From an uncultured Candidatus Saccharibacteria bacterium (GTDB lineage: Bacteria > Patescibacteriota > Saccharimonadia > Saccharimonadales > JAGQNJ01), in contig CAYRSA010000002.1 of NCBI GenBank assembly GCA_964426845.1, positions 34,495 through 98,494 on the forward strand: DNA of 64,000 bases. The letters are read 5' to 3'. Position numbers and translations under genes: made by a program. This document shows, in pieces, positions 7,884-50,437 of the stretch. Below the pieces are notes generated by a model. The model had not been told where the DNA came from, did no database searches, and worked only from the letters and a program-made list of their open reading frames with translations. Within the stretch, counting starts at the first letter, position 1. Every line of letters begins with the position of its first letter.

Positions 7884-8591
7884 TTAGCCGAAATTGGTGT
7901 GCGTGTTGGTAACATCGTCCAGCTCGTCCAGGGCATCCATCAAGCGCATAATCTTGCCCAAGGTAGTCTCGTCTTCTACATTAACTGTGTTGTTGGGCAC
8001 GAAGGTCAGCTCGGCTTCGGTAATTTCCAGACCGGCCTCCTGCAGGGCCGTCCGCACTTTGGCTAAGTCCTTGGGATCAGTGTAGACTACCGTCTCGCCG
8101 TCTTCCTCGATAGCGTCTTCGGCTCCAGCGTCTAAAACCTGTAGTAGCAAATCTTCACCGACTCCCTTGACGCGAATGACTCCTTTGCGGTCAAACTGAA
8201 AAGCCACGGCACCCTTCTCGGCCATGTTGCCGCCGTGCTTAGAAAAAGCCAGCCGCACTTCTGGATAGGTCCGGTTCAAGTTATCGGTTGCGCATTCCAC
8301 TAAGATCGCCACGCCGCCCGGACCATAACCCTCGTACATGACTTCTTGAATTTGCTCGCCACCCAGCTTGCCACTACCGCGGTCAATGGATCTTTGAATA
8401 TTGGCATTGGGCATATTAGCGGCCTTGGCCCGATCGACGGCCAAGCGCAGGGCAAAGTTCATATCGGGATCGGCGCCCGCCCGCGCGGCAATAGCAATGG
8501 CATTACCGAGTTTGGTAAACACCGCTCCACGAGCCGCATCTTTAGCTCCCTTTTGGCGTTTAATTGTTGACCACTTGCTGTGTCCGGACAT
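7884..8591 (-). CDS. yebC: YebC/PmpR family DNA-binding regulator
   Basis: MSGHSKWSTIKRQK N-terminus and full-length family pattern. Confidence 0.92.
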   Translation of the reverse strand: MSGHSKWSTIKRQKGAKDAARGAVFTKLGNAIAIAARAGADPDMNFALRLAVDRAKAANMPNANIQRSIDRGSGKLGGEQIQEVMYEGYGPGGVAILVECATDNLNRTYPEVRLAFSKHGGNMAEKGAVAFQFDRKGVIRVKGVGEDLLLQVLDAGAEDAIEEDGETVVYTDPKDLAKVRTALQEAGLEITEAELTFVPNNTVNVEDETTLGKIMRLMDALDELDDVTNTHTNFG

Positions 8592-10074
8592 GACTTGGCT
8601 TCTCCTCTATCTCTGTTAGTATAGCAGACCGCGCCTTGATTTTCACCCTCAACAGTACCACCAACGCCAGAATCGCTAGGTTCAAAATAACCATCTGTAA
8701 GACATCAATATGTACCTCTATGTTGGCGTAGGGCACCTTGGCCAGCAAACTGGAAATACTTAACATATATTCCAGCACGATTTGGCCCGGCAAAACTATG
8801 AGCTTAGAAAACATGAAATTGAACATTCCAGCCAGACCCGCCAGGAAACTCAGCAACATAGCTAGAGGAGTTAGTGGCACCACCAGCAGATTAGCCAGAA
8901 TACTAATCAGTGACAAGCGACCGAAGATGTATAAAATGACCGGCAAGGTACACAGCTGAGCCGAAACCGTCTCTGATAAAACCGATGGAATCATTTTTTC
9001 CTGCCACCGCTCTGGCACGAACCGCTGGTTCAATAGCGGTCCTACAACTAATACTCCGAAAAAAGCCGTGAAGGACAAGTACCAGCCGATGTTGGACCAT
9101 AAATACAGAGGGTTGATGCCGGCCGTCAAAGCGGCCACCGACAACAGTAGCAACATCGGTTTGAAAGCTCGGCCCCACAGCCAAGCTATAAGACTAATGC
9201 CACTGACAACCGCCGCTCGGACGATCGACGGAGCATAGCCAGTAAATAGTAAGAATATGCCGATCAAAGCCAGTGAGAAAAAAAGCGACTGAAATCTAGA
9301 CCGCCGGCGGAACAGACGCCGGACAATCTCGATAATCACGGTCAAGTTATAGCCCGAAACAGCCACGATATGAATCAGGCCGACAGTAATCATCTCTTCC
9401 TCCAGGGTCGGATCAAGAGTAGTCCGCTGACCAATCAGAATACCCAAGCCAAAGGCCGCCAAGCGTTCCGGTAACATATCTTGCATGCCGGCGGCGAAGT
9501 CCCGCCGAATCTTCTCAACCGGTGACTTGGACCGTGAAATCAAAGACAGCTTCGCGAAACTAGTCCCAACAATCTGGCCACCACGTTTGCGAAACAGCCG
9601 GCCCTGAATCATCAGCCGATCACCGCGGTAAACAATTGGCAAACCCTGGCCTTCGACATCCATTTCACCGACCAAATCGACGGCAAACGGTTCGTGTAAA
9701 ACCATGCTGCCAACCGCAAATTCTAACTGACCACGATCGCTATAGACTGCATCATCAATGGCCGTGGCCTGAATAGTCACCGTCCTGCCGATCAAGCCAT
9801 CGTAGATAGCAGTCTGTTGCATTACTAATGCCCCGCGCCACCAACCAAGCAAGAACAAAGTCAGTGATAGGGCCAGCATCAAGAACGGTCGCTTACGGCT
9901 GACAGAAAATACAAAACCCGTAACTCCAAAAGCCACAACTACCCATATCCCTTCTATCACCGGCAGTCGCCGAGCCGCCCCTAACCCGGCCAAGAACATG
10001 GCGAGAGCAATCGTAAAGATTAAAGTCAGGCGCAGCGGCTTTTTCCTACCCATAGCCCGCAGGCTAGCAAACAA
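8560..10074 (-). CDS. comEC: ComEC/Rec2 DNA internalisation channel, short form without the C-terminal metallo-beta-lactamase domain
   Basis: Polytopic membrane protein with a competence-domain pattern (GLIHIVAVSGYNL). An ATG at 10053 is an alternative start. The 3' end overlaps yebC by 32 nt. Confidence 0.8.
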   Translation of the reverse strand: MFASLRAMGRKKPLRLTLIFTIALAMFLAGLGAARRLPVIEGIWVVVAFGVTGFVFSVSRKRPFLMLALSLTLFLLGWWRGALVMQQTAIYDGLIGRTVTIQATAIDDAVYSDRGQLEFAVGSMVLHEPFAVDLVGEMDVEGQGLPIVYRGDRLMIQGRLFRKRGGQIVGTSFAKLSLISRSKSPVEKIRRDFAAGMQDMLPERLAAFGLGILIGQRTTLDPTLEEEMITVGLIHIVAVSGYNLTVIIEIVRRLFRRRSRFQSLFFSLALIGIFLLFTGYAPSIVRAAVVSGISLIAWLWGRAFKPMLLLLSVAALTAGINPLYLWSNIGWYLSFTAFFGVLVVGPLLNQRFVPERWQEKMIPSVLSETVSAQLCTLPVILYIFGRLSLISILANLLVVPLTPLAMLLSFLAGLAGMFNFMFSKLIVLPGQIVLEYMLSISSLLAKVPYANIEVHIDVLQMVILNLAILALVVLLRVKIKARSAILTEIEEKPSHVRTQQVVNN

Positions 10075-13714: not shown

Positions 13715-15107
13715 ACTGCGCAATAACCAGAATGGTATGATTCTTGTGAGTGTATTCATAATTGTCGGCGCTTTGCTAATTATCGGCATATCTCTGGCCG
13801 GTTACACCATGAGCCAATACACAATCGCCAACCGCAAAGTCGGCTCGACCAATGCCAATCTAGTGGCTGAAGCCGGGGTCGAGCAGTCTATGCAAGGCCT
13901 GAATGAAAACGACAACTTCGCCGGTTATCCGACGCCACAAGTTTTCTTCAACAGCCCAACCCAGGGCCGAGGAGTTTTCACTACTACGGTCGAGAACGCC
14001 CAGGCCAGCAATACCAAGATAATTACCGCCACCGGCACAGTCTATAAATACAACCAATCCGCCAATCCAATTTCTACCAGAAAAGTTAAAGTTACTGTTG
14101 TAGGAACCACATCGGAGGGCTACTCAGTTCATTCGGGGCCGGGCGGCCTAATTCTGGGTGGTTCAGCTAATATCACTAACTCCGACGTCTTTGTCGGCGG
14201 TACCATCACCATGACCGGCGCTGCTCGCATCGGCACAAACTCCCAGCCCCTGGATGTAAACGTTGCGCACCAATCCTGCCCGACTGGCAATAATCCCGGC
14301 TCCACCTACCCAACTGTCTGCACCAGTGGCCAGCCTATTAGCCTGCAACAGAGCACCTTTATATACGGCAACGTTTGCGCTACTGGTCAAACTAGCTACG
14401 GTCCTAATCCGAGCAAAAACATCCAGCCGGGCAACGGTGGCCAGGGCTTGATGTTGGGTTGTGTAGCCCCGCCAACCTCGCCGCCGACTTATGACCGAGC
14501 CGCCCACATCGCTGCTATGACTACAACCGGGGCCGGTAACAGCAATACATACGTCTGCAGTAACTGGCCCTTCACCCGTAACTGGCCGGCCAATCTAAAA
14601 CTCACAGGTAATGTCAGCATAGGTAGCAGCTGCGACCTGACCATCAATGGCGATGTCTATATTACTGGCGACCTTAGCTTTGGGGGTGCCGCCCGTATCC
14701 GGATTGCTGATTCAGTCGGCACCGATCGGCCGGTGATTGTTGTTGACGGCAATATTAGCGTCGGCGGCTCGGCTCAGATTATTGCCAACTCATCAGGCAC
14801 TGGCGCTCATTTCATCAGCTTCCGAACCAACGCTGCTTGCAACCCTAATTGTACAGCTTTGACAGGTACGGCTCTAAAAACCTCTCAGTCTCTGCAAACC
14901 GTGACAGTTGGCGGGGCTGCCAACTTGCCAGGCATGATCTTCCAGTCCTATTGGGGCAAAATAAATCTAGCCGGCAGTGGCAACCTAGGGGCCGCCGCCG
15001 GTCAAACCATTGACCTCAGCGGTGCCGGCACCATTACTTTTGGAACTACCCTATCGTCCGGCGAGCGCAGTTGGACCATTACCAGCTATCAGCAAAAATT
15101 CGACTGA
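13707..15107 (+). CDS. PilX-N-like pilus-associated protein with a large Gly/Thr-rich, beta-helix-like C-terminal region
   Basis: N-terminus NQNGMILVSVFIIVGALL...ANLVAEAGVEQ (PilX_N pattern). Repetitive G-x-a-x-I-t-g segments. 8-nt overlap with the upstream pilin. Confidence 0.65.
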   Translation: MIKLRNNQNGMILVSVFIIVGALLIIGISLAGYTMSQYTIANRKVGSTNANLVAEAGVEQSMQGLNENDNFAGYPTPQVFFNSPTQGRGVFTTTVENAQASNTKIITATGTVYKYNQSANPISTRKVKVTVVGTTSEGYSVHSGPGGLILGGSANITNSDVFVGGTITMTGAARIGTNSQPLDVNVAHQSCPTGNNPGSTYPTVCTSGQPISLQQSTFIYGNVCATGQTSYGPNPSKNIQPGNGGQGLMLGCVAPPTSPPTYDRAAHIAAMTTTGAGNSNTYVCSNWPFTRNWPANLKLTGNVSIGSSCDLTINGDVYITGDLSFGGAARIRIADSVGTDRPVIVVDGNISVGGSAQIIANSSGTGAHFISFRTNAACNPNCTALTGTALKTSQSLQTVTVGGAANLPGMIFQSYWGKINLAGSGNLGAAAGQTIDLSGAGTITFGTTLSSGERSWTITSYQQKFD

Positions 15108-15108
15108 C

Positions 15109-15597
15109 CTAATCTTTGCGACGACGCCTACCCTTGCCTTCGCCACGGTTCAAGACCCACAAAGCCACCAGTTGAATCAAGACCACCCCGCCAATAATGG
15201 CGCTACTGGTATCTAGTAAACTGCGACCTAGCGGCACCTTGGCCACTTCGGCTTTAATCTCCGGTGGAAGTACCGGCAAGATAAAGGCCGCGTATACGAT
15301 ACTGGTAATAATCAGCGGGAAGAAGTTCAATATTCCCTTGGTACGCGAAATACTGCCTTTCAAAAACAAGGCCGTTAGAATAATCGGCAAAGTTATAACT
15401 ATGGCTTCCGAATAATGAGCCAAGCTGCCGTCTTTAAAGGTGTTACTGATAAAATGTTCGACGTCTTTGCCAAAATAGCGACCCAGGAGTTCCCCGGCCA
15501 TAACGCTAAAGAATAGATGCGAAGCGCTGACTCGGAAGAACAAGCCAAAGAATATTGGAATTCCGATAATGACACCGAGAATTATGTACGAAAGCAT
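15109..15597 (-). CDS. polytopic membrane protein, function unknown
   Basis: About 5 TM helices and a basic C-terminal tail. TATTAT sits 7 nt upstream of the ATG. Confidence 0.6.
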   Translation of the reverse strand: MLSYIILGVIIGIPIFFGLFFRVSASHLFFSVMAGELLGRYFGKDVEHFISNTFKDGSLAHYSEAIVITLPIILTALFLKGSISRTKGILNFFPLIITSIVYAAFILPVLPPEIKAEVAKVPLGRSLLDTSSAIIGGVVLIQLVALWVLNRGEGKGRRRRKD

Positions 15598-15622
15598 AAG
15601 CCTAATAATACCAGAGGTACGC

Positions 15623-32414: not shown

Positions 32415-33347
32415 CTATACACTGTTAATCGCTATTTTGGTAGGCTCAATACACACAAACTTCTGGCCCAAGCTGATTTTTTTGCCCGGTGGCAAGGTTT
32501 TGACCGCCACCACTAGTTGGTCAATCAGCCGACGATCGATTTCCTGCACCTCGTTTTCTCTAAGCCAAGCCGCCATCACTTCTGAAGACACATAGTAGGG
32601 GAGAGCGATAAACTTCTTGCGATCTATACCCTGCCCGATTCGCAAATCTTGTAGTTGAGCCCTCACAGCCTCGTCCAACACCTGGTTTCGGACCTTAGCC
32701 GCGGAATATGACTCAGTCAGTTCCCTCTTCTGCTTTTTACTCAACCGGGGGAGTAGCTTCCGCCTAATCCAGTTGCGGGTGTACTTTTCGTCAGCGTTAG
32801 TACTGTCCTCCCGCCACAGCAAGTTATTAGCCCTGGCGTACTCGTAAATGTCCTTTTTGGTATAGCCCAGCAGCGGCCGAATAATACCGTCAGTTGATTG
32901 TAGGGATGACATCCCTTTCCGCCTGGTACCTCTAAGGACATTGAAAGCCAAAGTTTCAACCGCATCATCTTGATGATGAGCTAAAATCACCCCAGTTGCA
33001 TTATGCTTATTGCGAATCTGTTGCAGAAATTCATGGCGCGCTTGCCGGGCCGCATCTTCACTAACACCGGAACCCAGCTTTCCCTCTTTAAATTCATACT
33101 TTAGTCCATGTTTCTGAGATAAAGTCGCAACTAATTGTTGGTCCTCTGTTGAGTCGTCACGGATCCCGTGATCAAAATGTGCCACCACCAGTTCCAGCTC
33201 CGGTTGTTTCACCAACAAATCCAGCAACACCACCGAATCCACGCCACCCGACACGGCTACCACATACTTGCCAGGCGGCAAGGCCAAGTTCTTAGATGAC
33301 AAATTACTCATATTACCGCTTATTGTATCAGCCGTCTTGTTGGGCAA
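32415..33347 (-). CDS. tilS: tRNA(Ile)-lysidine synthase TilS
   Basis: PP-loop VAVSGGVDS and HFDHG.R. An ATG at 33311 is an alternative start. Confidence 0.9.
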   Translation of the reverse strand: MPNKTADTISGNMSNLSSKNLALPPGKYVVAVSGGVDSVVLLDLLVKQPELELVVAHFDHGIRDDSTEDQQLVATLSQKHGLKYEFKEGKLGSGVSEDAARQARHEFLQQIRNKHNATGVILAHHQDDAVETLAFNVLRGTRRKGMSSLQSTDGIIRPLLGYTKKDIYEYARANNLLWREDSTNADEKYTRNWIRRKLLPRLSKKQKRELTESYSAAKVRNQVLDEAVRAQLQDLRIGQGIDRKKFIALPYYVSSEVMAAWLRENEVQEIDRRLIDQLVVAVKTLPPGKKISLGQKFVCIEPTKIAINSV

Positions 33348-34527: not shown

Positions 34528-34604
34528 TGGTGTCGGTGGTTGGAATTGAACCAACGACCTCAGGCTTATGAGTCCTGCGCTCTAACCAACTGAGCTACAC
34601 CGAC
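34528..34604 (-). tRNA. tRNA with anticodon CAU, probably elongator tRNA-Met, CCA encoded
   Basis: The reverse complement folds as GTCGGTG-TA-GCTC-AGTTGGTTA-GAGC-G-CAGGA-CTCATAA-GCCTG-AGGTC-GTTGG-TTCAATT-CCAAC-CACCGAC-A-CCA. The G1-C72 pair rules out an initiator. Confidence 0.85.
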
Positions 34605-34653
34605 GACAAGGGGCAATATACCACGTTTGGCCCCTGTAATGCTAGCCAAATAT

Positions 34654-34683
34654 AAAACAGAGGCCCTCGCAAAGCCTCTGTTT
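34654..34683 (-). terminator. intrinsic terminator of the small KGG gene
   Basis: cagaggc/gcctctg stem flanked by A and T runs, so it could be bidirectional. Confidence 0.6.
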
Positions 34684-34709
34684 ATGTCTGATTGGGGCTA
34701 GCCTCGGGT

Positions 34710-34853
34710 TTAGCTTTGCCCACCCCTCCGGCCAGCTTCGCGGGCCCTGTCAGGATTGTGTTTGAAATTGCCACCGCTGGCTCTACCACCCATAGCTGCA
34801 ATCTTCTTAACTTTATCCTTGTTCATTGATGCGAATCCTCGCTTACCTGCCAT
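34710..34853 (-). CDS. KGG-repeat general stress protein (47 aa, below the ORF-track size cutoff)
   Basis: Translates to MAGKRGFASMNKDKVKKIAAMGGRASGGNFKHNPDRAREAGRRGGQS. A GGAG RBS sits 6 nt upstream and a terminator lies downstream. Confidence 0.75.
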   Translation of the reverse strand: MAGKRGFASMNKDKVKKIAAMGGRASGGNFKHNPDRAREAGRRGGQS

Positions 34854-34857
34854 ATGC

Positions 34858-34901
34858 TCTCCTTCTGGTTACGTTAGCCTGGTAATAGTAACCGGAGGGA
34901 G
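34858..34901 (-). promoter_or_regulatory. 5'-UTR hairpin occluding the RBS of the KGG gene
   Basis: On the mRNA, CUCCCUCCGGUUAC pairs with GUAACCAGAAGGAG (12 of 14 bp, two C.A mismatches, 16-nt loop). The 3' arm contains the SD sequence. Confidence 0.5.
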
Positions 34902-35103
34902 CGCATACGCGCTGTAAGGAAATTAACTAAGTATAACTTTGTCGAGCTCTAAAATCCGCTGATCGGTAGTCTCGCTGGTTTCGTAATCTAGTTCTAACAT
35001 TTTGCTTACTGCCCTTTTGTTGTTTTTGTTATCGATTTAACGATACTTAGTATTATACATGATTTTGCATAAATTGCAAGTACTTTACATTGAGAGTTAG
35101 TGT

Positions 35104-35133
35104 TTGACACAGACTACCCCTGTTTGCTAAGAT
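35104..35133 (+). promoter_or_regulatory. promoter of initiator tRNA
   Basis: TTGACA, an 18-nt spacer, and TGcTAAGAT (extended -10). Confidence 0.5.
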
Positions 35134-35158
35134 ATGGACTGCTCTTAGGCGGCACTAT

Positions 35159-35233
35159 CGCGGGGTGGAGCAGCGGCAGCTCGCGTGGCTCATAACCACG
35201 AGGTCGCAGGTTCGAGTCCTGCCCCCGCAACCA
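35159..35233 (+). tRNA. initiator tRNA-fMet (CAU), CCA encoded
   Basis: CGCGGGG...CCCCGCA-A-CCA acceptor with the C1xA72 mismatch, identical to the E. coli initiator acceptor stem. Anticodon loop is CTCATAA. Confidence 0.92.
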
Positions 35234-47358: not shown

Positions 47359-47378
47359 GGTTTAATCATACAACATCT

Positions 47379-47449
47379 CATAGACAACCCCGCTCCTTAA
47401 GCTTGGAGGAAGCTCAGCAAATAAAACTGAGCAGAGTTGGCGGTACTAG
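47379..47449 (+). repeat. decayed partial copy (copy 0) of the 185-nt module
   Basis: ATAGACAACCCC ... GAGCAGAGTTGGCGGTACTAG aligns with the 3' half of copies 1 and 2. It ends in E-Q-S-W-R-Y-stop, but indels break the frame. Confidence 0.6.
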
Positions 47450-47466
47450 AAGCTCATTTGTGAAGA

Positions 47467-47495
47467 TTGACAGATCAAACGTTTTTGCTTATAAT
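47467..47495 (+). promoter_or_regulatory. perfect consensus sigma70 promoter
   Basis: TTGACA, a 17-nt spacer, TATAAT, then 7 nt to the ATG at 47503. Confidence 0.7.
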
Positions 47496-47502
47496 TAGTT
47501 TC

Positions 47503-47724
47503 ATGGATAGAATAATGGACGGCGAAAAGATAGTTAAGGGTTTATCAGCTGCAGCTTCTTGTATCGCTGATGGTGCTGAACCAGAGACTCTAGTTGATGA
47601 TCAAAAGGCTGCATTAGGAATAGTTGCTGGTATGCCCCCAGTAGTTGCTGAGCCGTTTATTGTAGCTGCTGCACTCGATAGCGCTTATGATGATTTGTTT
47701 GGTGATGACGGTCTAAGTTTCTAG
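47503..47724 (+). CDS. hypothetical acidic protein (73 aa), probably leaderless
   Basis: In-frame ATG at the predicted transcription start site (TSS). The ORF-track start at 47467 is the -35 hexamer itself. Confidence 0.5.
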   Translation: MDRIMDGEKIVKGLSAAASCIADGAEPETLVDDQKAALGIVAGMPPVVAEPFIVAAALDSAYDDLFGDDGLSF

Positions 47725-47736
47725 TAACAAAATTCG

Positions 47737-47921
47737 TGGTGGCGATAAAGCGAAGACTTTTGAACCTTTGGAGTCTATTGTGGAGTGGCTGATTTCTAAC
47801 CCTAATCCTGCGTGGTCAAAGCAGCTGAAAGAAGCTAGCTACGTAAAGATCGAACAGGGTTGGCGTTACTAGAAAAGAGTAAGATAAAGAGCGTTGAACC
47901 TAACCACTTGCTATTACTTGT
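47737..47921 (+). repeat. 185-nt module, copy 1 (contains a 44-codon frame at 47738-47872 with no start codon)
   Basis: Aligns end-to-end with 49022-49214. Identical blocks are TGGTGGCGATAAAGCGAAGA and AGAGTAAGATAAAGAGCGTTGAACCT. Confidence 0.85.
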
Positions 47922-47994
47922 AAGTGGTGATAAAGTATTTTCTATTATGATATTCAGCCAGAAGCACCAGTTGGAACTATTCCTCAGCCTACAT

Positions 47995-48080
47995 GGGCTG
48001 TGCTTCACTATGGTTGAAGCCACTGAGTAAAACTCAGTCAGCACAGCCCCAATAACAGGCTTCAACCGAAGTCTGTTTTT
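47995..48080 (+). promoter_or_regulatory. attenuator/riboswitch-like leader with mutually exclusive helices
   Basis: A:A' is 10 bp (47995-48004 / 48040-48049). B:B' is 10 bp (48012-48021 / 48058-48067). Hairpin C is at 48022-48038. A terminator-like hairpin at 48054-48077 reuses B' and is followed by a T-rich run. Confidence 0.45.
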
Positions 48081-48099
48081 AATTGTAAGGAGAAATGAA

Positions 48100-48282
48100 A
48101 TGTACGGAGAAGGATACCCTGCTCGTAAAGCAGTAGAAGTAGAGCACATCAGTGATGGTGTGTACGTCTGGTATGACCCAGATGAATATGGAATTGGTCA
48201 TGAACACTATGGAGAGCAACACCCAGCCATGACAGAACAAGGTCAACCTGACCAGGATCAAACAACAAACGAGGTACAATAA
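48100..48282 (+). CDS. small acidic His/Glu-rich protein (60 aa)
   Basis: AAGGAG RBS 8 nt upstream. It ends 15 nt before alaX. Confidence 0.55.
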   Translation: MYGEGYPARKAVEVEHISDGVYVWYDPDEYGIGHEHYGEQHPAMTEQGQPDQDQTTNEVQ

Positions 48283-48297
48283 TACAAAGGAGTGTAT

Positions 48298-49017
48298 ATG
48301 ACAGAACTAATCTACATGAACGATTTCGACGTAGTTACTTGTGAAGCCAGCGTTGTCAAAACAGAAGAGCACGAAGGCAAAGATGTAATCGTATTGGATC
48401 AGACGTGCTTCTATGCCAAGGGTGGCGGTCAGGACTTTGACCAGGGTGTCATTAAGTCAGAGGACGTAGAGTTTCAAGTTGAAGCTGTCTTCTTTGTAGA
48501 CGGCGAAGTGAAACATATTGGATCATATACTACTGGCAAGTTTGCAGTCGGAGATAAAGTCGCTTGTGAGGTTGATGTAGAAAGACGCAACCTCAATAGT
48601 CGACTTCACTCAGCTGGTCATGTGATAGATATGGCAGTACGAGAGTTGGGATGGGATTGGAAACCAGGCAAAGGTGCACACTATCCTCACATGGCTTTTG
48701 TGGAGTACGAAGGTCCTTACGACGCCGAGGAAAAGCAAAAACTCATAGAGCAGTTACAAGATACTCTTACCAAGATGATTAAAGCTGGCTCTACTAACAG
48801 CATTAAGTTTATGACACCAGAAGAGATGGCTGAGACTGGAGCATTTGTGCCTGATAACTTACCAAAGGGTAAGCCGTCACGAGCAGTCTTCTATGATGAC
48901 TTTGCTGTTCCTTGCGGAGGCACGCATGTTAAAGACATTAAAGATATTGGTTCGGCAACTATAACTAATATGAAGCGAAAAGATGGCAATGTGCGAGTCA
49001 GTTACAAGGTTGACTAG
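48298..49017 (+). CDS. alaX: AlaX-type Ala-tRNA(Ser/Gly) editing protein (free-standing AlaRS editing domain)
   Basis: HSAGH (HxxxH) and CGGTH (CxxxH) zinc motifs; about 240 aa. AAAGGAG sits 5 nt before the ATG at 48298, whereas the ORF track starts at a GTG at 48292. Confidence 0.8.
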   Translation: MTELIYMNDFDVVTCEASVVKTEEHEGKDVIVLDQTCFYAKGGGQDFDQGVIKSEDVEFQVEAVFFVDGEVKHIGSYTTGKFAVGDKVACEVDVERRNLNSRLHSAGHVIDMAVRELGWDWKPGKGAHYPHMAFVEYEGPYDAEEKQKLIEQLQDTLTKMIKAGSTNSIKFMTPEEMAETGAFVPDNLPKGKPSRAVFYDDFAVPCGGTHVKDIKDIGSATITNMKRKDGNVRVSYKVD

Positions 49018-49021
49018 TCTT

Positions 49022-49214
49022 TGGTGGCGATAAAGCGAAGAGTTTTGAACTTTTGGCTGGTGTCGTAAACTGGCTGATAGATAACCCTAATCCTGACTGG
49101 AACTTACAGCTTAGAGAAGCCAGTAAAGTTTCTACCGAACAGAGTTGGCGATACTAAAGAAGAGTAAGATAAAGAGCGTTGAACCTCTAATGCTTGCTAC
49201 TTGTCGCCCAGACA
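49022..49214 (+). repeat. 185-nt module, copy 2 (contains a 44-codon frame at 49023-49157 with no start codon)
   Basis: See copy 1. Confidence 0.85.
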
Positions 49215-49245
49215 ACTATATTAAGGATGAAATAAGGAGGAATAC

Positions 49246-49920
49246 ATGGCAGAGCCAACACTAGAAGTAGCGAGAGGTGGATTAGTACCCGTAGCAGCAG
49301 CTATCGAACAACCCTTAAGAGATGGTCATAATCTCCACGCCTTCCAGTCTGGTGGCGGTCTTAGAGTAATCCGCATAGAAGATGCGGCCGAAGAATTAGT
49401 CGGTTATGGTGAAGCCCTTCAAGTAGAAGAGGCTCTCGCTCATGCTGCTCTAGATTACTTACTCGGTCATGAAGATTACGACCAACAATATAATGGCGAT
49501 GGTGCGAGATACCCACACTACCTGACAGGTACAACGGAGGTAAGTTCTCCCCTCGACGGTCACTTACGACGTGGAGCAACCTTTGACGCTTATAAGTCTC
49601 GTACAAGCGACCTAATTGTCTGTTCACTTGCTGGCATATCTTTCCCACCAGACATCCCTGAGGGAATGCAAGAACGAGTGGTTGCATCTATGGACGTAGA
49701 AACCTTTGAAGAACGTGGCATAACCTATCAAGCAGAACCTTACCAGTTCCCAGGCAATGGAGAATGGGGTATCTCAGTCAAAGTTATCGATAATCCTAAA
49801 GGTATTTCAACCATGTCTTATCGCTACACCAAGACTGGTGAAGGCGATACTTTTGAAAAAGCTGTGAGAGAAGCGTTTGAAGCTCCTGAGGTCGAGCTTA
49901 TGGACGAACAGGAAGATTAG
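49246..49920 (+). CDS. hypothetical acidic protein (224 aa)
   Basis: AAGGAGG RBS 6 nt upstream. No recognisable motif. Confidence 0.6.
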   Translation: MAEPTLEVARGGLVPVAAAIEQPLRDGHNLHAFQSGGGLRVIRIEDAAEELVGYGEALQVEEALAHAALDYLLGHEDYDQQYNGDGARYPHYLTGTTEVSSPLDGHLRRGATFDAYKSRTSDLIVCSLAGISFPPDIPEGMQERVVASMDVETFEERGITYQAEPYQFPGNGEWGISVKVIDNPKGISTMSYRYTKTGEGDTFEKAVREAFEAPEVELMDEQED

Positions 49921-50097
49921 TCGCTAAATCTAGCTTGTACGAAGCCAAATTGACCTCAAAAGACGTCGCACAATAACGATTGGATGACCAACACATACAG
50001 GGGTGACGAGCTTGTTTTTCCAGAAAAAGGCAAAGTCAAGGCCTGATCAGTTTTGTCCCACCCCTGTTAAAAACCTATTATGCCATATGGAAATTCG

Positions 50098-50437
50098 TGG
50101 TGGGGCGAGAAGGAATTGAACCTTCGACCAATCAGTTATGCTTACCACTACAACTTTCGTTGCCTCTTTCGTGTTTGTGGTCTGGACTGTCTCTTCGTCC
50201 GCTGGTTAGCGGATGCCTGCCGTTCAGTCTCTACACCTTTCCTGGTTAAACCGGGACTTGGCTCGGGATTACCAATCTTATTAAAGATAAGGCTTCCCCG
50301 AATTTGACAGGATATACTTACCGGTTACCCGCGTAAGCAGCCCTAAACATTTTGGCATATCTAACACAGAATATGGGCTTAGACTTAGCCAAATTGTTAA
50401 CTCAAGCCGACTGCTCTAACCACTGAGCTACCGCCCC
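50098..50437 (-). tRNA. tRNA with anticodon CAU interrupted by a group I intron; non-initiator, possibly tRNA-Ile2 (lysidine)
   Basis: The exons (50437-50405 and 50140-50098) join into a 76-nt cloverleaf: GGGGCGG-TA-GCTC-AGTGGTTA-GAGC-A-GTCGG-CT|CATAA-CTGAT-TGGTC-GAAGG-TTCAATT-CCTTC-TCGCCCC-A-CCA. Confidence 0.85.
50141..50404 (-). ncRNA. group I intron (IC3-like, 264 nt, no ORF) in the anticodon loop between U33 and C34
   Basis: It follows an exonic U and ends in G. Core blocks UGUCAAAUUCGGGGAAGCC, CCCGAGCCAAGUCC and GAAAGGUGUAGAGACUGAACGGCAGG resemble the bacterial tRNA-intron catalytic core. Confidence 0.8.

What the first reader, a model, noticed from the sequence alone, without database searches (positions are those of the whole stretch)
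47379..50097. Cassette-like array next to the tRNA 3' end, punctuated by three copies of a ~185-nt module
The interval between the 72-aa membrane gene and the 3' end of the intron-bearing tRNA differs from its surroundings. It is visibly more A/T-rich. Its genes (48100, 48298, 49246) use strong AAGGAG-type RBSs, whereas many neighbouring genes are leaderless.

It is organised as: module remnant (47379-47449), consensus promoter, orf73, module copy 1 (47737-47921), structured leader, orf60, alaX, module copy 2 (49022-49214), orf224, tRNA.

Copies 1 and 2 share identical end blocks, TGGTGGCGATAAAGCGAAGA and AGAGTAAGATAAAGAGCGTTGAACCT, around a diverged middle.

Copy 1 begins AAATTCG-TGGTGG. The tRNA 3' end on the same strand reads AAATTCG-TGGTGG-GGCGAGAAGGAATTGAACC (TGGTGG is the complement of CCACCA). 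The module continues ...GCGAAGACTTTTGAACC, which is loosely tRNA-3'-end-like.

This looks like serial insertion or recombination at a tRNA-proximal site, or a cassette system. However, no integrase, transposase or reverse transcriptase is present in the window.
Basis: partly seen in the sequence, partly recalled or inferred. Interest (0 to 1): 0.75.

Follow-up and report, generated by a model that had tools for sequence, protein, structure and literature searches.

The report
Split-integrase footprints beside a tRNA gene
The repeated 165-base modules are the cut-off tail ends of a serine integrase gene, left behind each time a small mobile element inserted at the end of a tRNA gene in this Saccharibacteria genome, so the region is a stack of captured foreign genes.

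Summary
Two 165-nt modules (47737-47901, 49022-49186) and a decayed third (about 47365-47453) punctuate an A/T-rich, low-GC3 stretch that abuts the 3' end of an intron-bearing tRNA-CAT (50098-50437, minus strand).

At least seven related Saccharimonadales contig sets carry modules, and where contigs reach far enough they lie beside the same tRNA. They hold 1 to 8 modules and almost entirely different genes between them.

Each module starts at TGGTGG, the complement of the tRNA's CCACCA end. It encodes a conserved ~45-aa peptide that ends in a stop codon. That peptide is the true C-terminus of a large serine recombinase (LSR) whose attP site lies inside its own gene.

- A 5.2-kb probably circular contig (L146) carries the intact 563-aa LSR with the module-type C-terminus.
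- In L144 and L033 the LSR reading frame runs straight into the tRNA 3' end. In L144 the missing 45 codons sit 3.3 kb away, across the cargo.
- About 87% of the best 120 LSR homologues are truncated at that junction.

The window keeps only footprints plus cargo (orf73, orf60 with alaX, orf224) and no LSR body. How the LSR bodies were lost, and whether cassettes can move in trans, is unresolved.

The closest precedents are phage Mx8 IntP/IntX and the archaeal "suicidal" integrases, both tyrosine recombinases. I rate this a new variant of a known kind.

The parts
47365..47453 (+). Oldest module, decayed. It lacks the 5' block and the block after the stop, and is frameshifted, but still ends in ...TEQSWRY*.
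   Evidence: nhmmer E=2.9e-4 for 47377-47453.
47467..47495 (+). Perfect sigma-70-type promoter, TTGACA-17-TATAAT. It would drive a leaderless orf73.
   Evidence: 12/12 matches. The ATG at 47503 lies 7 nt after the -10 element (sequence).
47503..47724 (+). Cargo gene orf73 (70 aa if read from the second ATG at 47512). No family match. GC3 is 0.25.
47730..47736 (+). AAATTCG, identical to the 7 nt left of the tRNA's TGGTGG. I interpret it as a stub of the attP left (P) arm left by the preceding element.
   Evidence: The same K-I-R codons lie left of L003 module 1. L141 has a similar GAAATTTCG before its module.
47737..47901 (+). Module copy 1. It runs from the core TGGTGG (47737-47742) through 44 codons, GGDKAKTFEPLESIVEWLISNPNPAWSKQLKEASYVKIEQGWRY, to a stop at 47870-47872. 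A conserved block with TTGAACCT follows (47876-47901). It is the displaced 3' end of an LSR gene, i.e. the attL side.
   Evidence: the L146 LSR hits 47738-47869 by tblastn, E=6e-5.
47902..48099 (+). Highly structured leader upstream of orf60-alaX, with alternative pairings typical of a terminator/antiterminator. It belongs to the cargo.
   Evidence: MFE -65.3 kcal/mol, z=-5.2; terminator-like hairpin 48054-48077; repeat I7; no Rfam match.
48100..48282 (+). Cargo gene orf60. No family match. It has a strong ribosome-binding site.
48298..49017 (+). Cargo gene alaX, a free-standing alanyl-tRNA editing domain.
   Evidence: PF01411, 2.1e-17; PF07973, 6e-6.
49022..49186 (+). Module copy 2, with the same anatomy: TGGTGG at 49022-49027, peptide GGDKAKSFELLAGVVNWLIDNPNPDWNLQLREASKVSTEQSWRY*, and the conserved block at 49161-49186.
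   Evidence: the L144 LSR hits 49023-49148.
49194..49222 (+). Promoter-like site TTGCTA-17-TATATT directly after module 2. A similar TTGCTA follows module 1.
   Evidence: and the sequence. A consensus match only.
49246..49920 (+). Cargo gene orf224. No family match. GC3 is 0.35.
49921..50097 (+). 'Tail' between orf224 and the tRNA 3' end. 49965-50096 is 77% identical to the tRNA-adjacent sequence of L139, which has different cargo. It ends in AAATTCG. It is possibly a decayed P arm or LSR 3' remnant. It holds a promoter-like TTGTCC-17-TATTAT.
   Evidence: homology to LSR 3' ends is not demonstrable.
50098..50437 (-). tRNA-CAT, the integration target (attB/attR side). The 3' exon is 50098-50140, the group I intron 50141-50404 and the 5' exon 50405-50437. 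CCACCA is the complement of 50098-50103.

Best explanation
The interval is a stack of three remnants of small integrative elements that inserted one after another at the 3' end of a tRNA-CAT gene.

**The recombinase.** The elements belong to a family found in Saccharimonadales that encodes a large serine recombinase (LSR) of about 560 aa. Its attP site lies inside its own coding sequence, about 45 codons before the stop.

**The reaction.** Recombination happens at or next to TGGTGG, which is the complement of the tRNA's CCACCA end. After integration the LSR body sits against the tRNA and reads into it, ending for example ...SGGGGWI*. The last 45 codons, plus about 30 nt of downstream sequence, land at the far end of the inserted DNA. 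That displaced piece is the module.

**How the array grows.** Each new insertion at the tRNA pushes older elements outwards.

**State of this window.** The LSR bodies have since been lost. What remains is cargo (orf73; leader-orf60-alaX; orf224) separated by modules.

**Shown here.**
- Homology of the module to LSR C-termini.
- The intact form and the split form, in relatives.
- The same tRNA as target.
- Variable cargo between genomes.
- Independent origin of the module copies.

**Inferred.**
- The exact crossover position.
- The order of the insertions.
- That the very strongly conserved 5' block is the LSR's P' half-site.
- How the LSR bodies were removed.
For: 1. **Same locus, different cargo.** Modules lie in a fixed orientation facing the 3' end of tRNA-CAT in the window, L003, L103/L088, L139, L143 and L144 (L138 is rearranged; no tRNA was detected on the fetched part of L108). 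They number 1 to 8 and cargo genes lie in either orientation.

2. **The module is coding.**
- Diversity at codon positions 1, 2 and 3 is 0.25, 0.20 and 0.34.
- An exhaustive HMMER search of 1.84e9 representative proteins finds 33 relatives. Nearly all are 46-105 aa and match at their C-terminal end.

3. **The split form.**
- In L144 a 515-aa ORF with Resolvase, Recombinase and Zn_ribbon_recom domains runs into the tRNA 3' end...EPFATLVKATEFQS|GGGGWI*.
- Its only module lies 3.3 kb away on the same strand.
- Both junctions share AATCTGGTGG.
- L033 has the same LSR-tRNA junction.

4. **The intact form.**
- P0124, P0058 and P0044 (559-563 aa) carry module-type C-termini.
- An HMM built only from window-clade modules scores P0124 residues 517-561 at 30.1 bits. 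The family HMM scores 62.9 bits.
- L146, a 5204-nt contig with a 30-nt terminal overlap, is probably a circle. It carries the intact gene with TGGTGG in the same reading frame and no tRNA.
- Its LSR hits window 47738-47869 directly.
- L140 and L141 show LSR C-terminal codons contiguous with a module.

5. **Most database copies are split.** Of the best 120 LSR homologues, 104 stop within 30 aa of the junction motif.

6. **Independent acquisitions.** Modules within one genome are no more alike than modules from different genomes (identity 0.711 against 0.732). The nearest neighbours of both window copies are in other genomes.

7. **Foreign composition.** The window's array genes differ in GC and GC3 from the rest of the window. 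The 13-mer AAATTCGTGGTGG repeats at the tRNA junction and at module 1.
Against: - **No LSR body in this clade.** None is present in the window or in the fetched stretch around any array of the closest module clade (GGDKAK type: window, L003, L108, L138, L139, L143, L088/L103).
- **No intact LSR with a GGDKAK-type C-terminus was found.** The link runs through more distant family members at 40-45% identity.
- **Most modules begin exactly at TGGTGG with unrelated DNA to the left.** Random deletion of a 1.5-kb LSR body should more often leave stubs or bite into the module.
- **A second integration is not expected for characterised LSRs.** From general knowledge of serine integrases, they do not integrate into a hybrid attR site.
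- **The conserved block after the stop codon is unexplained.** It is a second GATAAAG..GCG..TTGAACC motif in direct orientation.
- **L138 is rearranged.** There the tRNA lies on the same strand as the modules.
Confidence: 0.75

Rival explanations
1. The array is an integron-like capture platform. LSR-less cassettes, each a module plus cargo, circularise and are inserted or shuffled by an LSR supplied in trans by an autonomous element such as L146. The module acts as the cassette's recombination site. The arrays would then never have held an LSR body for each cassette.
For: - Arrays of the window clade have up to 8 modules and no LSR.
- Module boundaries are sharp, and the two end blocks are 100% identical between species whose proteins are about 70% identical.
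- Cassettes are mostly single genes of 0.3-1.1 kb, as in integrons.
- L141 keeps only about 20 LSR codons left of a module, next to an unrelated gene.
- Two cassettes recur between modules in different genomes: L143 and L108 at 62%, L143 and L003 at 50%.
Against: - No conserved left half-site is visible at most junctions.
- No circular cassette was found.
- There is no hairpin or dyad symmetry of the attC kind.
- No trans-acting LSR was seen in the 64-kb window.
Confidence: 0.15
2. After one founding integration, the array grows and turns over by natural transformation and homologous recombination. Modules and the tRNA serve as homology arms, and no site-specific step follows the first.
For: - ComEC is encoded in the window and pilin-like genes are present.
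- Modules give 165 nt of homology.
- Module copies are intermixed between genomes.
Against: - Homologous recombination cannot by itself place a new gene between two modules.
- It does not predict that every one of more than 20 modules starts exactly at TGGTGG.
- It does not predict hybrids of tRNA end and module (L138 at 7849, L143 at 15783).
- It does not predict ends that are more conserved than the middle.
Confidence: 0.07
3. The module is an independent small gene or a repeated regulatory element of an ancestral operon, unrelated to mobile DNA.
For: - Some copies have an in-frame ATG (L003 module 3, L138 module 3, L139, L093).
- The peptide family is conserved at the protein level.
- Promoter-like sites follow both window modules.
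Against: - Gene content between modules is not conserved.
- Many copies lack a start codon or carry stops or frameshifts.
- There is no RNA structure or covariation on either strand.
- The peptide is the C-terminus of full-length LSRs.
- Composition is foreign.
Confidence: 0.03

Closest known systems
Myxophage Mx8 IntP/IntX
   Same: attP lies inside the 3' part of the integrase gene, so integration gives the integrase a new C-terminus without removing its catalytic part (PMC6070905). From my own recollection, not checked in a paper here, the Mx8 attB sites also overlap the 3' end of a tRNA gene (tRNA-Asp).
   Different: Mx8 Int is a tyrosine recombinase of a 49-kb phage. Here it is a large serine recombinase on elements of about 5 kb. 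Here the displaced C-terminal fragments pile up as a repeated array.
Archaeal 'suicidal' (SSV-type, pTN3, pT26-2) integrases and the gene capture model
   Same: The att site lies within the integrase ORF. Integration at a tRNA gene partitions the gene into two fragments that flank the captured DNA. Split forms dominate in genomes (PMC8371274).
   Different: Those are tyrosine recombinases (PF16795). The split separates a short N-terminal part from the catalytic C-terminal part and inactivates the enzyme. The review calls them exclusive to Archaea. Here only the last ~8% of a serine recombinase is removed, so loss of activity is not implied.
Tycheposons and other tRNA-anchored genomic islands
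   Same: Successive integrations at one tRNA push older elements outwards. Degenerate elements and cargo remain, separated by att-derived repeats. One tycheposon target is a tRNA-Met(CAT) (10.1101/2020.12.28.424599).
   Different: Tycheposons use tyrosine recombinases, and their repeats are partial tRNA copies of about 40 nt. Here the repeat is a 165-nt integrase 3' fragment and shares only 6-13 nt with the tRNA end.
Chromosomal integrons and integrase-less attC clusters (e.g. Vibrio VCR arrays)
   Same: Arrays of mostly single-gene, compositionally foreign cassettes are separated by a homogeneous repeat of 120-170 nt. The repeat has conserved ends and a variable middle. Arrays can lack a nearby integrase.
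   Different: There is no IntI, and no inverted-repeat or hairpin attC structure. Cargo lies in either orientation. The repeat is a coding fragment.
Phage and ICE large serine integrases (phiC31, Bxb1, A118, TP901-1)
   Same: The parent protein has the same domain set: Resolvase, Recombinase and zinc ribbon.
   Different: In the characterised integrases, as far as I know, attP lies outside or beside the int gene and the targets are protein-coding genes. A 2014 survey stated that serine integrases were not known to target tRNA genes (PMC4383910). From my own recollection, not checked here, the small serine recombinase of phage phiRSM was later reported to target a tRNA.

Membership tests
Integrative element of a large serine recombinase with attP inside its own gene (module = displaced LSR 3' end) | The parent protein has Resolvase, Recombinase and zinc-ribbon domains. 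| tested here: met
   for the L144, L033 and L088 proteins, and for the precomputed Pfam of 120 homologues. This was met in relatives only. No such ORF exists in the window.
Integrative element of a large serine recombinase with attP inside its own gene (module = displaced LSR 3' end) | The module peptide is homologous to the extreme C-terminus of full-length LSRs. | tested here: met
   the window-clade HMM scores P0124 residues 517-561 at 30.1 bits and P0058 residues 515-559 at 25.2 bits; the family HMM scores 62.9 and 38.2 bits; tblastn of the L146 LSR against window 47738-47869 gives E=6e-5 at 45% identity. One search gives a matching result.
Integrative element of a large serine recombinase with attP inside its own gene (module = displaced LSR 3' end) | An unintegrated form exists in which the LSR body and the module form one continuous ORF. 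| tested here: met
   L146, with a 30-nt terminal overlap and a 563-aa ORF, and L147 with a 559-aa ORF. L140 and L141 show the same contiguity. No such form was found for the GGDKAK subclade itself.
Integrative element of a large serine recombinase with attP inside its own gene (module = displaced LSR 3' end) | In the integrated form, the LSR ORF is fused to the tRNA 3' end, the module lies at the other end of the insert, and a short core is identical at both junctions. | tested here: met
   L144: LSR|tRNA junction and module 3.3 kb away, shared AATCTGGTGG. L033. In the window, AAATTCGTGGTGG occurs at 47730 and 50091.
Integrative element of a large serine recombinase with attP inside its own gene (module = displaced LSR 3' end) | The LSR catalyses attP x attB recombination at this core. 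| not testable with these tools
   This needs in vitro or in vivo recombination assays, or read-level junction evidence.
Integron | An IntI tyrosine recombinase with attI lies next to the array. | tested here: not met
   No recombinase flanks the array. The neighbours are FMN_red, HxlR, Dus, a 72-aa ORF, YggT and Crp. Ten further unannotated ORFs have no recombinase domain.
Integron | attC sites: imperfect inverted repeats (R''/L''...L'/R') that fold into a hairpin. | tested here: not met
   No inverted repeat lies within the modules. The consensus fold is -8.4 kcal/mol on the plus strand and -3.1 on the minus strand, with no covariation. The conserved ends are direct repeats.
Classical tRNA island / tycheposon | A tyrosine integrase, and a direct repeat of a partial tRNA (about 20-50 nt) at the distal end. 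| tested here: inconclusive
   There is no tyrosine integrase. In the window only 6-13 nt are shared with the tRNA end. L143, however, also has two true 21-nt partial tRNA copies, at 15604 and 16563, so other element types use the same tRNA.
Archaeal suicidal (SSV-type) integrase | A tyrosine recombinase of the PF16795 type, whose split inactivates it by separating Int(N) from the catalytic Int(C). | tested here: not met
   The enzyme is a serine recombinase. The catalytic N-terminal domains stay in one piece and only about 45 of 560 residues are displaced.
Structured RNA / known RNA family | A match to an Rfam model, or a conserved structure with covariation. | tested here: not met
   (only the group I intron matches)..

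The most novel reading that the evidence does not exclude
This LSR family may be a bacterial, serine-recombinase counterpart of the archaeal self-partitioning integrases. Cutting off the last 45 residues at integration would act as a built-in directionality or stability switch. The displaced fragments would keep a functional half-site: their 5' block is 100% identical between species. They could therefore still serve as landing or exchange sites. The tRNA-CAT locus would then be an integron-like gene-capture platform in genome-reduced Saccharibacteria, which otherwise have few known mobile elements.
Probability: 0.3. Interest if true: 0.8.

Novelty: new variant of a known kind. Interest (0 to 1): 0.66.

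Why it matters
**Gene gain in Saccharibacteria.** It identifies how one lineage of Saccharibacteria (episymbiotic bacteria with genomes of about 1 Mb) acquires accessory genes. Cargo seen here includes an AlaX editing protein, a copper-resistance operon, an EamA transporter, an APH-type kinase and peptidases. All of it arrives at one hotspot beside tRNA-CAT.

**A new setting for a known trick.** An integrase whose recombination site lies inside its own gene was documented for tyrosine recombinases: Mx8, and the archaeal "suicidal" integrases that a 2021 review calls exclusive to Archaea. Here it appears in large serine recombinases that target a tRNA 3' end.

**Practical uses.**
- The module is a ready-made sequence tag. 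It can locate these islands, and it flags LSR annotations that are junction-truncated, as about 87% of the best 120 homologues are.
- The family supplies natural pairs of full-length and C-terminally truncated LSRs. These could be used to test what the extreme C-terminus does for directionality, a question relevant to serine integrases used in genome engineering.

Tried and rejected
- **Structured RNA or riboswitch in the module.** RNAalifold on 16 copies gives no consensus structure and no covariation on either strand. There is no Rfam match.
- **attC-like hairpin.** No inverted repeats.
- **3' end of a host gene present elsewhere in the window.** tblastn and blastn find no other copy.
- **A long parent protein, first attempts.** The word-indexed search and the 50%-representative HMMER search returned only short ORFs. 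The parent was found only after noticing LSR codons fused upstream of distant modules, and then searching with the reconstructed 560-aa protein.
- **Viral origin.** Two viral-contig scans gave only chance matches. PHROGs gave nothing.
- **An integrase in the window.** None found by Pfam on 10 unannotated ORFs, by tblastn with two LSRs, or by an HMM of the LSR 3' end.
- **The 'tail' (49921-50097) as a decayed LSR 3' end.** Alignment is unconvincing beyond the last ~10 nt. Left open.
- **AlphaFold of the 46-aa peptide.** It gives only two short helices at pLDDT 72. No fold search was run, because such a small model would match anything.
- **History of the rearranged L138 locus.** Not resolved.
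- **A mis-specified pattern search** was replaced by regex and nhmmer scans.

Full report
**1. The observation**

The repeat is real.
- Copy 1 (47737-47901) and copy 2 (49022-49186) are 165 nt long and 78% identical.
- Two end blocks are exact and unique to these two places in the 64 kb.
- A third, decayed copy lies at about 47365-47453.
- The 13-mer AAATTCGTGGTGG occurs only at the left edge of copy 1 and at the tRNA 3' end.

The tRNA is a tRNA-CAT on the minus strand (50098-50437). A group I intron interrupts it after U33. ARAGORN misses it.

The interval differs in composition from its surroundings. GC is 0.441 against 0.486, in the lowest 2.3% of 2.7-kb windows. GC3 of its four genes is 0.25-0.41, against 0.516 +/- 0.061 elsewhere. 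A perfect sigma-70 promoter precedes orf73, and alaX is confirmed. The ribosome-binding-site contrast is only partial: 3 of 4 array genes against 17 of 67 others.

**2.

In one frame each module is open and ends in a stop codon at the same position:
- ...GGDKAKTFEPLESIVEWLISNPNPAWSKQLKEASYVKIEQGWRY*
- ...GGDKAKSFELLAGVVNWLIDNPNPDWNLQLREASKVSTEQSWRY*

There is no start codon inside the conserved part.

**3. Comparative evidence**

The organism is a Saccharimonadales (Saccharibacteria) bacterium known only from metagenomes.

The closest species representative is L003, whose Dus protein is 69% identical. It has the same flanks, Dus-HxlR-FMN_red-tRNA-CAT ... YggT. Between them lie four modules, a lone 5' block, and five genes unrelated to those of the window, some on the opposite strand.

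A metagenome scan, peptide searches and context look-ups added more arrays:

| Locus | Modules and content |
|---|---|
| L103/L088 | one module; EamA transporter |
| L108 | three modules plus a lone block |
| L114, L093, L116 | short contigs carrying modules |
| L138 | three modules; rearranged |
| L139 | one module, then a CsoR-DUF305-CopA copper operon, then the intron-bearing tRNA |
| L143 | eight modules over 8.5 kb |

Common features of these arrays:
- Modules always share one orientation. Except in L138, that orientation faces the tRNA's 3' end.
- Homology starts sharply at TGGTGG and ends at ..TTGAACCT.
- Cargo is almost never shared between genomes. Two cassettes do recur, still bracketed by modules: L143 with L108 at 62%, and L143 with L003 at 50%.
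- Cargo with a family match is miscellaneous accessory material: EamA, APH, peptidase S51, P-loop kinases, copper resistance and AlaX.
- None of the other 78 Dus-anchored loci has a module.

**4. Nature of the module**

It is not a structured RNA, and it has no inverted repeats.

It shows a modest coding signature. Codon-position diversity is 0.25, 0.20 and 0.34, and 3 to 4 of 15 copies are disrupted.

Searches for a longer parent protein first returned only short ORFs:
- A word-indexed search of 5.8e9 proteins found only four ORFs of 46-53 aa.
- An exhaustive HMMER pass over 1.84e9 representatives found 33 relatives. Nearly all are 46-105 aa and match at their C-terminal end.
- Together they define a family: G(G)xEAKxFEPLxxIxEWLIxNPxPxWxxQLxEASxxxxxQxYRY*.

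**5. The parent gene**

Three distant members (P0024, P0028, P0025) carry a shared extra peptide upstream, in frame...W[KR]EPFA[ST]L[VM]KA[IT]E.S. In L144 the same peptide abuts the 3' end of tRNA-CAT.

*The split form*
- Translating upstream in L144 gives a 515-aa ORF with Resolvase, Recombinase and zinc-ribbon domains, i.e. a large serine recombinase.
- It reads straight into the tRNA: ...KATEFQS|GGGGWI*.
- The only module in L144 lies 3.3 kb away on the same strand, with cargo between.
- Both junctions share AATCTGGTGG.
- L033 shows the same LSR-tRNA fusion.

*The intact form*
- Searching with the reconstructed 560-aa protein returned 724 homologues at E<1e-20. Those that carry a source name are from Saccharimonadales or Saccharibacteria.
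- Of the best 120, 104 stop within 30 aa of the junction motif.
- Seven have tails of at least 55 aa after that motif; six of them are 559-569 aa long. Three of these (P0124, P0058, P0044) have C-terminal tails that belong to the module family.
- P0124 is encoded on L146, a 5204-nt contig with a 30-nt terminal overlap and therefore probably a circle. There the intact gene holds TGGTGG in the same reading frame, then the 45 codons, a stop, and a TTTGAACC motif. The contig has no tRNA.
- That LSR hits the window modules directly. A profile built only from window-clade modules scores the last 45 residues of P0124 at 30.1 bits and of P0058 at 25.2 bits.

**6. Mechanism**

*Shown*
- The module is the displaced 3' end of an LSR gene that spans its own attP.
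- The target is the CCA end of tRNA-CAT.
- Both split and intact forms exist.

*Inferred*
- Each integration places the module and cargo distally and the LSR body next to the tRNA. Repeated events build the array, and LSR bodies are later lost.
- The events look independent. Modules within one genome are no more alike than modules from different genomes (0.711 against 0.732), and the nearest neighbours of both window copies are in other genomes.
- The very high conservation of the 5' block, identical between species whose proteins are about 70% identical, fits an LSR P' half-site.

*Unexplained*
- A second, similar motif lies after the stop codon, and distant family members keep it.
- The left boundaries of modules are clean.
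- Every array of the window's subclade lacks an LSR.
- L138 is rearranged.
- The tRNA-adjacent 'tail' is conserved between the window and L139.

These open points leave room for cassettes mobilised in trans by an LSR from elsewhere, which would make the system integron-like.

**7. Comparison with known systems**

- **Mx8.** attP lies inside the int gene, and integration gives Int a new 3' end without inactivating it (PMC6070905).
- **Archaeal suicidal integrases.** They split their own gene at tRNA sites. The review describes them as exclusive to Archaea (PMC8371274).
- **Both of the above are tyrosine recombinases.**
- **Serine integrases and tRNAs.** A 2014 survey stated that serine integrases were not known to target tRNA genes (PMC4383910). 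From my own recollection, not checked here, the small serine recombinase of phage phiRSM was later reported to do so.
- **Tycheposons.** They show the same outward stacking at tRNA genes, with partial tRNAs as separators (10.1101/2020.12.28.424599).
- **Integron criteria** (IntI, attC hairpin) were tested and not met.

I found no paper describing these arrays or this LSR architecture in Saccharibacteria. Those searches cover open-access text only.

**8. Verdict**

The finding is genuine and its interpretation holds. The modules are integrase-gene footprints of serial insertion at a tRNA. This is a new variant of a known kind, and moderately to highly interesting.

Noticed in passing
window 50098-50437 (-); intron 50141-50404: The tRNA-CAT carries a group I intron between positions 33 and 34, and ARAGORN does not see the gene. 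The intron is polymorphic: L139 also has one, and L018 shows a similarly split match. It is absent from the orthologous tRNA in L003, L103, L138, L143 and L144. Introns at 33/34 in Met(CAU) tRNAs of Patescibacteria are described in PMC13011429.
   Followed up: partly
window 47902-48099 (+): The 198-nt leader upstream of orf60-alaX folds far better than shuffled sequence (-65.3 kcal/mol, z=-5.2). It has a terminator-like hairpin at 48054-48077 and a competing pairing at 48007-48021. It matches no Rfam family. It is a candidate attenuator or riboswitch controlling a tRNA-editing gene.
   Followed up: partly
window 49921-50097 (+); L139 3323-3456; L138 10647-10708: The 'tail' between the last cargo gene and the tRNA is conserved between genomes that carry different cargo. 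It contains a promoter-like TTGTCC-17-TATTAT (50053-50081) that points into the antisense of the tRNA. If joined to a module, ATGGAAATTCG would supply an in-frame start (MEIRGGDKAK...). That ATG is not conserved in L139.
   Followed up: partly
L088 2474-4103: A second, distantly related large serine recombinase (532 aa) has the same architecture at a different target. Its ORF ends inside the antisense of the initiator tRNA-fMet (...VAGPGLEPGTSWL*). Other LSR homologues end in ...SGADERT*, which points to further targets, probably other tRNAs.
   Followed up: partly
L143 15604, 16563, 15783: Two true 21-nt copies of the tRNA 3' end (TGGTGGGGATGGTAGGATTTG) lie inside the array. One module has a hybrid start, tRNA-like for 10 nt and then module. 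Elements with a crossover in the T-loop probably use the same tRNA.
   Followed up: no
L138 7847-7960 and 10762-10837: In this genome the tRNA lies on the same strand as the modules. A 12-nt fragment of its 3' end (TTGGTGGGGATG), fused to a decayed module, lies at the far boundary next to FMN_red. This suggests an inversion between att-type sites.
   Followed up: partly
L146 3099-3287; L144 11688-11903; L147 ~1879-1992; L033 ~14112-14219: A conserved small ORF of 62-71 aa, with no family match, sits immediately upstream of the LSR gene in all four elements. It is a candidate directionality factor or regulator.
   Followed up: no
L003 ~15399-15421; L108 6654-6684: The distal boundary of two arrays is a lone 5' block (GATAAAGCGAAGAGCTTTGAACCT) without the peptide-coding part. 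It looks as if the DNA between the two TTGAACC motifs of a module had been deleted.
   Followed up: no
window 8560-10074 (-), 32415-33347 (-), 34528-35233: The window also encodes ComEC (DNA uptake) and TilS. It holds two further CAT-anticodon tRNAs, one of them the initiator. The array's tRNA is therefore either elongator Met or Ile2.
   Followed up: no
L001, L002 (Logan contigs of SRR14932609 and SRR14932608): One of the two independent short-read contigs of the same organism (L002) begins inside module 1. The other (L001) begins just upstream of orf60. Repeats like these may fragment assemblies and hide such arrays.
   Followed up: no
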